36,744 nt of DNA from a virus (taxonomy: Duplodnaviria; Caudoviricetes): positions 1 to 36,744 of the IMG/VR virus record IMGVR_UViG_3300012844_000002. One strand, given 5' to 3'. Both the position numbers and the translations under genes were made by a program. The first letter of the stretch is position 1, and each line of letters opens with the position of its first letter. Below the pieces are notes generated by a model. That model was not told where the DNA came from. It did no database searches and saw nothing but the letters and a program-made list of their open reading frames with translations. Positions 1-19,358 of the stretch are shown piece after piece.

Positions 1-597
1 GCTGCCGCCCTTCACAGCGGCGTTTGTGCTGTCAGCGGATGCTAGTGGCAGGGTCTGGACAATCGTGAGGTCAAGCATTCGCAGGCCGTGCAGGCGGCAC
101 AGTGGGCGGCCCTGGTCGTCGCAGATGGCATCCATCGCCGCGCCCATGCGCTTCCACCAGGCTGCTGTGCCGGGTGATCGCCACTGCCCGGAACTGCCCA
201 AGGCGACCGTTCGCCAGGCTTGTGCTAAGCGCTGTAGCCGCTCGATCGACTCATGCATGTGCCAGACCGGCACGCCAGGCAGGTGGCCAGGCCATTGCTC
301 GAGCAAGCGGTCATTGGCCTCTTCGTCCCCATCTATCTCGTCGGGGATGAGTGCCCAGTCGAACCCGGGGTGCCGGTGCCAGTCATCCACCCAGCGGGTG
401 TAGCCGTACACGTCTACCTGGCCGCCCTTCTTCCAGACGGTGAACGCACCGTTGTCGAAGACGAAGGACTGACAGGCCTCTGCGATGATGCCCATATCGT
501 CTTGGCGTGGGAACGGCACCAACGCGTGCCGGCCGGCCAGTAGCCGTGCTGCATCCTGCCGCGTACCGCCAATCGGCGTGCCGTGGTAATGGATCAT
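1..597 (-). CDS. TGT/DpdA-like guanine transglycosylase, 3' end truncated by the window edge
   Basis: Not in the ORF track. Manual translation from ATG 597 is open for 199 codons: MIHYHGTPIGG...FVFDNGAFTVWKKG...ALIPDEIDGD...GVPVWHMHES...VALGSSG...RLHGLRML...LASADSTNA. DNGAF, PD, PVxH, ALG, HGL and SADS match TGT-fold motif order. Confidence 0.8.
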   Translation of the reverse strand, partial: MIHYHGTPIGGTRQDAARLLAGRHALVPFPRQDDMGIIAEACQSFVFDNGAFTVWKKGGQVDVYGYTRWVDDWHRHPGFDWALIPDEIDGDEEANDRLLEQWPGHLPGVPVWHMHESIERLQRLAQAWRTVALGSSGQWRSPGTAAWWKRMGAAMDAICDDQGRPLCRLHGLRMLDLTIVQTLPLASADSTNAAVKGGS

Positions 598-860
598 CCG
601 CTCAACCTCACCGTTTCGATCTCGACGCCCTGGTGCACGGCCTTGATCACCTGATCACCGCCGAAGCGCTCTGCGAGGTTGTCGGCGATCTGCTGGTGCC
701 AGCCCTGCTTGATCAGCGCGGTGGCGGTCTTGATGTGCTCGACGCGGATCATCGCTCGGCTGCAAATCGCCAAGCTGTAGACGATGACCTCGCCGTCACC
801 AGGGCAGGTCGCAGTGAACAGGTGCCGGTAGGTGTTTCTGGATCGGTTTTCTGTGGGCAT
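594..860 (-). CDS. Small QueF-like (QueF-L, T-fold) protein
   Basis: 88 aa; FTATCP..G, IRVEHI, WHQQIA, HQGVEIET resemble QueF FTSLCP / VE / HE / RGGI motifs; ATGA overlap with the TGT-like gene. Confidence 0.65.
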   Translation of the reverse strand: MPTENRSRNTYRHLFTATCPGDGEVIVYSLAICSRAMIRVEHIKTATALIKQGWHQQIADNLAERFGGDQVIKAVHQGVEIETVRLSG

Positions 861-912
861 GGGGATACCTCGCGGTTATATTTCACGCGGATCTAAATAG
901 AGGGTGTCAGGG

Positions 913-1347
913 ATGTGGCTGTGGCAGAACTATCTTAAGTACCGCGTTGCTTTGCGGAAGCAGGCGAAGGCACAGGAGGCGCTGGATAAAGAATACCCAC
1001 CAGATGAGCCTGAGGAGCTGACAAACAGTTGGATGTCTGACTACGTCAAAAGGGAAGACGGCCTGCTGCACTGGAAGTGGCTTATCCACACCGAGTACCT
1101 ACGCAACAAAGCAGACGTTCTGGATGCACAAATGCCTGACATCACTGAGCCAGGAATGTATGGGCGGGTCGAGTGGGATGATGATCCAAAGCAACCCTAC
1201 TACCTTACTGAGAAAGGCATAAGAGCTGCCCGCGATGCAATCAGGGCGGAGGAGAATCATCGACGCCAGGCGGTAGGGTATTGGTTTGGGATGGTGATGG
1301 CTTTGATTGCGGCTGTTACTGGATTGGTATCTGCATTCAAGGGCTAG
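913..1347 (+). CDS. Moron, hypothetical protein with C-terminal transmembrane helix
   Basis: Opposite strand to neighbours, more AT-rich; GAGGG RBS before ATG 913; hydrophobic C-terminus YWFGMVMALIAAVTGLVSAF. Confidence 0.7.
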   Translation: MWLWQNYLKYRVALRKQAKAQEALDKEYPPDEPEELTNSWMSDYVKREDGLLHWKWLIHTEYLRNKADVLDAQMPDITEPGMYGRVEWDDDPKQPYYLTEKGIRAARDAIRAEENHRRQAVGYWFGMVMALIAAVTGLVSAFKG

Positions 1348-1348
1348 A

Positions 1349-2218
1349 TTAGTCACCGCAGAAGCAGTCGATGTCTTCGGCTAGGAAGTCGAAATCAAAA
1401 TCCGTCTGCCTGGCTCGCTGATCGGCTGACCAGGCGAGCGCCCTGTAATTGGGGCGGTCCTGCCGGAATACCTGGCCGAACCTTTCTTCTGTGCCAGACC
1501 ACCAGATCACCCTGGACGGGTCTTCCTGGATGGTCCTGATCAGCTTGGCCTCGTTCTTTTTCCAGCACAGGTCGCAGTTGCCGTAGTCCGAGTCCATGCC
1601 CAGGTCGAAAGCCTGTTCGGCCCAGAAAGCCGCCACGTTTTTCTTGATGACGCCCGCGACGTAGGATGGGCAGACGCTATCCCATCGCGCATTGCCGCGT
1701 TCGTTGGCGGTCATCATTCGGCTGTAGCGGCGGGGCTCGTCGTAGCGGATTCCGACGATGCAGTCCCACTCGTCGTAGCCCAGGGCGCGCATGTGCTTCT
1801 CGCCGATCTTCACCTTGAGGTAGGCGGTGCACATGTTGTTGCTGAAGTTCGGCAAAACCGCTGGCAGGTTCTTCTCAGCCTTCCGGTATGCCTGGTAGTA
1901 CTCGAGCATCATGGTGAAGGGCTCGCCATTGCGGCTGGCCGTCTCGAAGTCGACGATCTTGTACCAGGGCGCGTCGTCCGGCTGCCCGTACACCCGGCAC
2001 CACTCCATCCAGACGATTTTGACCCCCCAGTGCTTGGCCATGGCGTCGATGAAGACCAACGTCTCCTCGCGCTCCTTGCCGGTGTTCTGGAAGAAGGCGT
2101 GCACTTCTGCCGGTAGCTTGCCGCCGTGGGCTTCGAGGATTTTCCAGAGCATGTGCCCGCTGGTGCGACCACCACTGACGCCGATCTGCGCCGGTCCAGT
2201 GATTTGATAGGGATTCAT
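1349..2218 (-). CDS. PAPS-reductase-like adenine nucleotide alpha-hydrolase (PP-loop) protein
   Basis: VSGGRTSG PP-loop, FQNTGKEREETL, CTAYLK, VGIRYDEPRR, GNCDLCWKK, terminal CFCGD; GGAG RBS before ATG 2218. Confidence 0.85.
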   Translation of the reverse strand: MNPYQITGPAQIGVSGGRTSGHMLWKILEAHGGKLPAEVHAFFQNTGKEREETLVFIDAMAKHWGVKIVWMEWCRVYGQPDDAPWYKIVDFETASRNGEPFTMMLEYYQAYRKAEKNLPAVLPNFSNNMCTAYLKVKIGEKHMRALGYDEWDCIVGIRYDEPRRYSRMMTANERGNARWDSVCPSYVAGVIKKNVAAFWAEQAFDLGMDSDYGNCDLCWKKNEAKLIRTIQEDPSRVIWWSGTEERFGQVFRQDRPNYRALAWSADQRARQTDFDFDFLAEDIDCFCGD

Positions 2219-2270
2219 GGCAATCTCCATTGCAGGCGCCGCCCTCGCCGGGGAGGCGTGAAAGTTGGTA
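2216..2270 (-). repeat. Hairpin + RBS leader repeat, copy A
   Basis: TACCAAC...GCCTCCCCGGCGAGGGCGGCGCCTGCAATGGAGATTGCCATG aligns with 3604-3658. Confidence 0.75.
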
Positions 2271-18749: not shown

Positions 18750-19358
18750 TTGAGTAGACCATTGCCACCAGCTGCTCTGCTTGAATCGGTATTTCTAGCG
18801 CTACAGCCAGCGTCAGATGTATGGGATTGGATTCAGCGGGAAATCCTCGCCGAGACCGGCAGCATCCATAACCCTGAGCATGCGCACCTCATCGACGCCA
18901 ACATTGGCGTGCTCTGGGCATCCTCAGGCTTTCCCAAGCAAGGCCGGGTGGTTTTGGGCCAGGCCGAGCAGCTGATGTTCCGCGCTGGCGGATGGCAGAA
19001 GGCACGGCAAGAGCAGCAGATGCGCCAGTGGTTCGGCGAGGAGCCGACCTACCTGATCACACTGGCCGCCGACTACTGCTCCCAGTGCAGCGACGCTGAG
19101 TTCTGCGCCCTGGTCGAGCACGAGCTGTACCACATCGCCCAGGCACAGGATGAGTACGGTGCACCCAAGTTCACCCAGGACGGTCTGCCCAAGCTGTACC
19201 TGCGCGGCCACGACGTCGAAGAGTTCGTCGGGGTGGTTCGGCGCTACGGTGCCAGCGAAGACGTTCAGCAACTGATCGACGCTGCAAGCCGGCCGCCTGA
19301 GGTGGCCAAGATCAACATTTCGAGGGCCTGCGGAACCTGTCTGCTCAAGTCGGCGTGA
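18750..19358 (+). CDS. Phage putative metallopeptidase
   Basis: LVEHELYH (HExxH) and HDVEEF; GAGG RBS before TTG. Confidence 0.85.
   Translation: MSRPLPPAALLESVFLALQPASDVWDWIQREILAETGSIHNPEHAHLIDANIGVLWASSGFPKQGRVVLGQAEQLMFRAGGWQKARQEQQMRQWFGEEPTYLITLAADYCSQCSDAEFCALVEHELYHIAQAQDEYGAPKFTQDGLPKLYLRGHDVEEFVGVVRRYGASEDVQQLIDAASRPPEVAKINISRACGTCLLKSA

What the first reader, a model, noticed from the sequence alone, without database searches (positions are those of the whole stretch)
1..860. Translationally coupled QueF-like + TGT/DpdA-like pair: candidate minimal 7-deazaguanine DNA-modification system in a temperate phage
Seen: an ORF absent from the track (ATG 597, open to the window edge) carries TGT-fold motifs in order: FDNGAF (cf. 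DSGAF/DSGGF), IPD, PVWH, ALGS, HGL, SADS (catalytic Asp). Its start overlaps the stop of an 88-aa gene (ATGA at 594-597) with QueF-type FTATCP, VE and H(Q) motifs. Established: phage DpdA swaps guanine in DNA for preQ0/preQ1, QueF-L amidinotransferases convert preQ0 to archaeosine (G+), and such bases block restriction enzymes. Inference: no folE/queD/queE/queC is in the window, so the pair would take preQ0 from the host queuosine pathway. The QueF-like protein is very short, lacks the Asp of CPxxGxPD and has HQ instead of HE, so the product may be a different base or this copy may be degenerate.
Basis: partly seen in the sequence, partly recalled or inferred. Interest (0 to 1): 0.85.

Follow-up and report, generated by a model that had tools for sequence, protein, structure and literature searches.

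The report
Phage DpdA with crippled mini-QueF helper
A soil phage carries a known kind of enzyme that likely swaps guanine in DNA for a host-made modified base, overlapped with a tiny unnamed protein predicted to fold like the archaeal enzyme QueF-L that likely helps supply that base; this copy of the helper has lost a conserved residue predicted to grip the base and is probably weakened.

Summary
Both ORFs and all quoted motifs are real. The large one (cut by the contig end at 199 of about 241 aa) is a DpdA of the 'DpdA-only' phage group tabulated by Hutinet 2019 (48% to SPN3UB). Its two measured relatives, 7-11 and MED16, carry only trace dADG, and MED16 DNA gained no restriction protection. 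The 88-aa ORF is predicted to be a minimal T-fold closest to QueF-L (TM 0.86, Z 12.8). It keeps Cys19/Glu41 but lacks QueF's catalytic Asp and NADPH motif family-wide, so it is neither QueF nor QueF-L. It almost never occurs without DpdA (89 of 91 loci), yet DpdA often lacks it, and a preQ0 importer fills the same slot in 6 of 18 such loci. Best reading: an accessory base-supply protein that traps host preQ0 on its Cys and likely releases ADG. This copy has Gln where 111 of 112 aligned relatives have Glu, also seen in three runs; the matching change leaves B. subtilis QueF about 2% active. I found no paper on the small partner (9 searches). This scan has noted the same pair many times on other DNA.

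The parts
1..597 (-). 5' 199 codons of a roughly 241-aa phage DpdA (TGT-fold guanine transglycosylase, 'DpdA-only' group); cut by the contig end. Predicted active site D48 (454-456), F52, D86 (340-342), H113 (259-261), L172, D189 (31-33). Private V87E (337-339) beside D86.
594..860 (-). 88-aa mini T-fold protein (phrog_37496; family core 80-81 aa), predicted QueF-L-like; C19 (804-806), E41 (738-740), H55, H76 (633-635) kept; E56 replaced by Q (693-695)
594..597 (-). ATGA stop/start overlap; a 4- or 1-base overlap recurs in 59 of 80 related viral contigs
838..876 (-). Generic gene-start leader (ribosome-binding site plus first codons) reused by unrelated genes in related prophages; not part of the T-fold family core
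   Evidence: matches in 17 of 79 loci, 0 with shuffled controls; mostly at other genes

Best explanation
The large gene is a phage DpdA that likely swaps a few guanines in phage DNA for a 7-deazaguanine taken from the host queuosine pathway, and the small gene is an optional helper predicted to capture free preQ0 on Cys19 and likely release it as ADG, the base this DpdA group would insert; this copy's helper is probably weakened by Glu56-to-Gln. Shown here: ORFs, overlap, family membership, residue conservation, co-occurrence. Predicted: both folds and the residue equivalences (C19=Cys55, V40-E41=Val77-Glu78, H55-E56=His96-Glu97 of B. subtilis QueF; D48/D86/H113/D189 = Asp95/Asp130/His181/Asp256 of Salmonella DpdA). 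Inferred: thioimide formation, water as the attacking nucleophile with His76 as base, action on free base before insertion, dADG as product, low modification level.
For: DpdA: 48% and 42% to the SPN3UB and SfI proteins whose accessions stand in Hutinet's DpdA column. The model of a 92%-identical full-length relative matches arcTGT Z 16.1, Cap10 15.4, DpdA 7ui4 14.3. Catalytic columns are kept in 57-59 of 59 rows. Product: MED16 (38%) and 7-11 (36%) belong to this group and carry dADG, 354 and 50 per 1e6 nt, with 3 and under 6 dPreQ0. The Val that restricts the pocket to preQ0 (Val209) aligns with Gly in 51 of 59 rows, leaving room for a bulkier base; ADG is a natural QueC intermediate. Helper: Foldseek top 10 all QueF-L, TM 0.86; VIA Z 12.8 against 9.9 next; C19 112/112, E41 108/112, E56 111/112, H76 110/112. 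Supply-side clues: of 80 DpdA-seeded contigs 62 have the helper, and 6 of the other 18 have a Vut_1/YhhQ importer in the same slot. The helper is fused to QueD-like domains in both orders in 4 proteins. QueD, YhhQ or a nucleoside deoxyribosyltransferase sit between or beside the pair in some loci. Its core is net acidic in 85 of 112 rows. Lesion: B. subtilis E97Q has 1.9% activity and a 280-fold higher KM.
Against: No activity has been measured for the helper or for any phage that carries it. 7-11 and MED16 make dADG without it, so it is not needed for ADG and may make another base. The catalytic Asp is absent (Ile/Val at Cys+7 in 106 of 112), and E. coli QueF Asp197Asn is inactive, so thioimide chemistry may be lost. 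The helper and YhhQ also co-occur (L150, L163, RHph_X2_30), and alternating in one slot may only reflect cassette shuffling. DpdA itself is net acidic too (median -6), so the charge argument is weak. The closest fold, QueF-L, acts on tRNA-bound preQ0, not free base. The His76 position near Cys19 rests on topology only. Glu-to-Gln/Ala/Ser mutants of other QueFs keep moderate activity, so 'crippled' is a probability (about 0.6), not a fact.
Confidence: 0.35

Rival explanations
1. The helper is a non-catalytic preQ0 trap or carrier: it binds preQ0 (perhaps covalently), shields it from host QueF or jams host QueF, and so raises the pool that DpdA uses.
For: Binding residues kept and catalytic Asp lost across the family; hosts carry queF, which drains preQ0; shares a slot with an importer. 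QueF-L forms a stable dead-end thioimide with free preQ0.
Against: His76, Tyr11, Tyr28 and Asn9 are near-invariant, more than a passive binder needs; a covalent trap would withhold base unless it is reversible.
Confidence: 0.22
2. One reading: the helper is a QueF-L-type amidinotransferase that turns DNA-bound preQ0 into archaeosine (dG+).
For: Closest solved fold is QueF-L; Cys and both Glu kept; no NADPH motif (0 of 112), as in QueF-L.
Against: QueF-L and QueF share the active-site Asp, absent here. Phage 'QueF-L' calls were overturned before (Dp-1 and HVTV-1 carry mainly dPreQ1). This DpdA group gave dADG and no dG+ in 7-11. Only two conserved basic columns.
Confidence: 0.15
3. The helper is a DpdC analogue: it hydrates preQ0 already inserted in DNA to dADG.
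For: Bacterial DpdC does this after insertion; QueF-L acts on nucleic-acid-bound preQ0; same chemistry as the best explanation.
Against: MED16 and 7-11 reach almost pure dADG without it; importer and QueD associations point upstream.
Confidence: 0.13
4. The pair does not mainly modify phage DNA: it targets RNA or host DNA, or soaks up 7-deazaguanines needed by host defences such as type IV CBASS.
For: Cap10 ranks second by fold, and TGT folds have been repurposed for protein-bound deazaguanine (abstract); measured DNA modification is trace and unprotective.
Against: All transglycosylase residues are kept; two group members do carry dADG in virion DNA; sequence link to CAjan DpdA, which is shown to be needed for DNA modification.
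Confidence: 0.1

Closest known systems
'DpdA-only' phage group (group 3 of Hutinet et al. 2019, PMC6884629; cluster DpdA/TGT_1 of PMC8306585): SPN3UB, SfI, SEN1, HK106, 7-11, MED16
   Same: Same protein family (36-48% identity), same motifs including the GSSG-type pocket, no preQ0 synthesis genes nearby, host with que genes.
   Different: The five of these genomes searched (7-11, MED16, SPN3UB, SfI, plus BTP1) have no mini T-fold. No DNA of a phage with the helper has been analysed in the papers I read.
QueF-Like (QueF-L) archaeosine synthase of Pyrobaculum calidifontis (PDB 5jyx, 5k0p; PMC5485725)
   Same: Closest predicted fold (TM 0.86, Z 12.8, about 20% identity); Cys nucleophile position; no NADPH motif.
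   Different: 80 aa against about 109; no active-site Asp at the QueF position; an invariant His in the last hairpin; phage gene beside a DNA enzyme; no sequence-level match.
QueF nitrile reductase (B. subtilis, PDB 4f8b), including phage QueFs (Cui et al. 2023)
   Same: T-fold (Z 9.8); CP, VE and (F/Y/W)HE motifs line up with Cys55, Val77-Glu78, Phe95-His96-Glu97.
   Different: No Asp62 equivalent, no E(S/L)K(S/A)hK(L/Y)(Y/F/W) motif (0 of 112); no Pfam QueF hit; profile match to host QueF only E 0.02.
Escherichia phage CAjan DpdA1 and Salmonella Montevideo DpdA/DpdC
   Same: Transglycosylase residues align (25% over 180 aa, E 6e-12; Z 14.3 to 7ui4).
   Different: Shorter barrel (241 aa), Gly in place of the pocket Val, no CxCxxC zinc motif, no DpdB/DpdC-like neighbour noticed, no full preQ0 pathway.

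Membership tests
Phage DpdA (DpdA-only group) | Sequence homology to proteins listed as DpdA by Hutinet 2019 | tested here: met
   48% SPN3UB YP_007011024, 42% SfI YP_009147480, 36% 7-11 YP_004782407
Phage DpdA (DpdA-only group) | TGT-type TIM barrel | tested here: met
   Model of relative L007, pLDDT 91; top matches arcTGT, Cap10, DpdA; generic TIM barrels follow closely at Z 13.7
Phage DpdA (DpdA-only group) | Three active-site Asp, His and base-stacking Phe/Leu | tested here: met
   D48, D86, D189, H113, F52, L172 present in the window and in 57-59 of 59 rows; equivalence by motif and alignment
Phage DpdA (DpdA-only group) | Complete reading frame | tested here: inconclusive
   Cut by the contig end; contigs of runs X4 and X5 continue it without indels and X4 stops at the family position
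Phage DpdA (DpdA-only group) | 7-deazaguanine in DNA, dependent on the gene | not testable with these tools
   Needs LC-MS/MS; known only for relatives 7-11 and MED16
QueF (nitrile reductase) | T-fold with Cys55, Glu78, Glu97 equivalents | tested here: met
   Met for the family; this copy has Gln at the Glu97 position
QueF (nitrile reductase) | Asp62 equivalent | tested here: not met
   Ile/Val at Cys+7 in 106 of 112 rows
QueF (nitrile reductase) | NADPH-binding QueF motif | tested here: not met
   0 of 112 rows
QueF-L (archaeosine synthase) | Single T-fold, closest to 5jyx/5k0p, no NADPH site | tested here: met
QueF-L (archaeosine synthase) | Active-site Asp shared with QueF | tested here: not met
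   Absent at the QueF position; an Asp/Asn at Cys+3 (106 of 112) could be a turn residue or a stand-in; the QueF-L sequence itself was not aligned
QueF-L (archaeosine synthase) | Homodecamer; amidino transfer to nucleic-acid-bound preQ0 | not testable with these tools
   Needs biochemistry; oligomer not modelled

The most novel reading that the evidence does not exclude
The 80-residue protein founds an unnamed T-fold enzyme family: a metal-free Cys/His nitrile hydratase that reverses the last step of host preQ0 synthesis to feed ADG (or another base not yet seen in DNA) to an ADG-preferring DpdA. That would give hundreds of temperate phages a two-gene route to modified DNA and explain why DpdA-only phages carry dADG without DpdC.
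Probability: 0.22. Interest if true: 0.75.

Novelty: new variant of a known kind. Interest (0 to 1): 0.45.

Why it matters
The largest group of DpdA phages (76 of 182 in 2019) has no precursor genes, and how its members end up with dADG, and what for, is stated as open in PMC6884629 and PMC8306585. The helper is a concrete, very small candidate for controlling which base and how much goes into DNA, testable with the published two-plasmid E. coli assay. This window is a poor test subject (cut gene, private lesions) but supplies a natural Glu-to-Gln allele for comparison with intact relatives such as L007 or L021.

Tried and rejected
Pfam and NCBIfam name neither protein. Sequence searches of PDB found nothing for the DpdA and only chance hits at E 0.25 or worse for the helper profile. 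Profile comparison of the helper with CAjan FolE was not significant, so a likeness of His76 to a FolE histidine (recalled) is not claimed. The ESM Atlas gave unnamed viral clusters at 0.95-0.97 and a QueF cluster at 0.88, a lead only. Complex prediction of DpdA with the helper: no answer, score 0.00. A search for long fused forms scored nothing among 7997 candidates, weak evidence. The genomic context of the QueD fusions was not recovered: P0347 gave no locus, and P0292 gave loci matching one half only. Neighbour clustering over 6905 ORFs found no constant third gene. Promoter and terminator scan was at chance level. The DpdA tree is the quick version, with two long branches; used only for 'at least 6 gains or losses'. 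No RNA run holds the locus at a useful share. Three DpdA differences at 53, 60 and 68 near the contig end are not shared by other runs and were discounted. Sequencing error as the cause of Gln56 was rejected. The helper profile hit only the centre genome among 401 of the phylum.

Full report
Observation. Both reading frames, the ATGA overlap at 594-597 and every quoted motif are in the sequence. The window is an entire 36.7-kb virus contig with a lambdoid layout: repressor, anti-repressor, O/P-like replication, NinB/NinG, terminase, head and tail genes. The pair lies at the far end of the leftward early arm. No integrase is on the contig; 'temperate' rests on the repressor genes and on relatives lying in Pseudomonas chromosomes. 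The best-holding runs are soil metagenomes.

The large gene is a known DpdA. It matches phrog_887 at E 1e-66 and 109 of 50,697 phage records. The SPN3UB and SfI matches carry the accessions listed under DpdA, with no other pathway gene, in Supplementary Data 1 of Hutinet 2019. It is 38% identical to MED16 gp38, 36% to 7-11 gp32 and 23% to CAjan DpdA. All 80 fetched viral relatives are 240-245 aa, and contigs of two runs continue this gene without indels. An AlphaFold model of relative L007 (92% identical; pLDDT 91) matches archaeal TGT (Z 16.1, rmsd 3.4, 219 aligned), Cap10 (15.4) and Salmonella DpdA (14.3), with generic TIM barrels from 13.7 down. D48, F52, D86, H113, L172 and D189 correspond by motif to Asp95, Phe99, Asp130, His181, Leu236 and Asp256 of Salmonella DpdA and are kept in 57-59 of 59 rows. 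The GGMV pocket of preQ0-specific enzymes aligns with GSSG; Gedara 2023 argues that the Val excludes bulkier 7-substituents. I infer room for a larger base such as ADG.

What this DpdA group does, where measured. 7-11 DNA has 50 dADG per million nt and no detectable dPreQ0, dG+ or dPreQ1. MED16 has 354 dADG and 3 dPreQ0, and its DNA was cut by the G-site restriction enzymes tested. Neither genome has the small gene. The anti-restriction role known for heavily modified phages is therefore not established for this group.

The small gene. It matches phrog_37496, unknown function; 234 close proteins and 283 clusters at 50% identity. I aligned 112 sequences: the window protein, 101 of the 150 listed representatives (short, near full-length ones) and 10 close relatives. 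The model (pLDDT 94.6, two strands, two helices, two strands) has QueF-L as all ten best Foldseek hits (TM up to 0.86, E 1e-4) and as the top VIA hit (Z 12.8, rmsd 2.1, 86 aligned), ahead of FolE 9.9 and QueF 9.8. C19, V40-E41 and (F/Y/W)54-H55-E56 line up with the QueF nucleophile and preQ0-binding residues. The Asp at Cys+7 is Ile or Val in 106 of 112 and the NADPH motif is in 0 of 112. N9, Y11, Y28 and H76 are near-invariant. It works like a QueF/QueF-L binding site but fails membership of both.

Coupling. Seeded with the small gene, 89 of 91 viral loci have this DpdA within 400 bp (27 of these come from close relatives and partly repeat earlier contigs, the other 64 give 62). The two exceptions, near-copies of each other, overlap a divergent DpdA-like ORF. 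13 of 14 genome loci have both; the 14th was a weak match. In 401 Pseudomonas genomes, 11 have the small gene, all abutting DpdA, and 14 have this DpdA group; three of the 11 were genomes I had found through the small gene, and one has both genes broken. Seeded with DpdA, 62 of 80 contigs have the helper. A quick tree of 54 DpdAs forces at least 6 gains or losses; L005, the DpdA nearest to the window's, lacks it. So the helper needs DpdA, and DpdA does not need the helper.

Clues to a supply role. Six of the 18 helper-less contigs carry a Vut_1/YhhQ importer overlapping the DpdA start. L150, L163 and RHph_X2_30 carry both. Four proteins fuse the helper to a small QueD-like domain, three in one order and one in the other; Pfam PTPS scores near the cut-off in three. 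L144 has QueD between the genes, and 8 of 143 loci scored carry a nucleoside deoxyribosyltransferase beside them. L113/L114 place the same DpdA among QueE, a small QueD and QueC without the helper. Five of five lysogen genomes have queC and queF. ADG is a QueC intermediate. My reading is that the helper captures free preQ0 as a thioimide and, lacking both NADPH and the usual acid, lets water attack, which would give ADG. That chemistry is inferred by analogy with the QueF-L path, where ammonia attacks. A passive trap is nearly as likely.

This copy. Residue 56 is Gln where the other 111 aligned rows, and 118 of 119 close relatives, have Glu. The codon reads the same in contigs of runs X1, X2 and X5, one of which may be the source sample. 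B. subtilis QueF E97Q keeps 1.9% activity with a 280-fold higher KM; a review table rates such mutants as reduced but active. The DpdA has V87E next to D86 where 120 of 120 relatives have Val, also read in X1, X2 and X3. Overall divergence from the nearest relatives is still mostly synonymous, so this is recent decay or altered specificity and not an old pseudogene.

Literature. Nine full-text searches showed no paper on the small partner; subscription journals are largely missing. Seen: Cui 2023 bioRxiv parts 2-5 of 6 (its supplements were not opened and Data S1 could list such a protein); Hutinet 2019 passages, sections 8 and 11 and supplement rows; passages of PMC5485725, PMC10164549, PMC13740343, PMC5372742, PMC8306585, PMC5699537 and 10.64898/2026.04.15.718813; abstract of 10.1101/2025.04.06.647259. 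Earlier notes of this scan describe the same pair in at least ten other windows; they gave me the 7-11 and MED16 leads, which I checked.

Verdict. A real, widespread, accessory partner of a catalogued DpdA group, unnamed in the papers I could search: new variant of a known kind. Interest 0.45, because the DpdA is known, measured modification is trace, the helper's chemistry is untested and this copy is cut and probably weakened.

Noticed in passing
window 1349-2230 (-): 293-aa PAPS-reductase-like gene (phrog_424, E 2e-35; Pfam PF01507 below cut-off) one gene upstream in the same arm; a similar gene recurs near the pair in 9 loci of one neighbour cluster. Not a constant partner.
   Followed up: partly
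window 904-1347 (+): 147-aa gene (phrog_19471, unknown) on the opposite strand with lower GC (about 52%) and a C-terminal hydrophobic stretch; looks like a moron inserted between the PAPS-like gene and the pair.
   Followed up: no
window 838-876 (-); L008, L010, L011, L014, L016, L018, L022 just after dpdA: A 39-bp gene-start leader is reused by unrelated genes in 17 of 79 related loci (0 for shuffles), suggesting cassette exchange by short homology. In L019 the gene upstream of dpdA ends in a remnant of the helper's last codons.
   Followed up: partly
L113:7381-9915 and L114: QueE, a 105-aa QueD-like gene without the motif Cys, an 80-aa unknown ORF, DpdA and QueC in one run; the 80-aa ORF resembles QXV73613 of RHph_X2_30, which lies between its importer and helper.
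   Followed up: partly
L115:2679-3047, L117, L125, L154, L032, L034, L144, L145: Nucleoside 2-deoxyribosyltransferase (PF05014) between or directly after the two genes; could recycle modified base from nucleotides.
   Followed up: partly
L174:6857-7507, L176:8240-8890: Divergent 216-aa DpdA-like ORF overlapped by the helper; keeps the first two Asp motifs but lacks the His motif, and has a very long branch.
   Followed up: partly
PP438422.1 (L194:3321-4237): Microcystis phage Mae-JY30 has the pair in reverse order, dpdA then helper, still overlapping.
   Followed up: yes
L042:7184-7444: A FolE gene about 1.5 kb downstream of dpdA in one relative.
   Followed up: no
window 18750-19358 (+): ORF matching phrog_513 ('transposase', E 1e-97) just before the terminase genes.
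   Followed up: no
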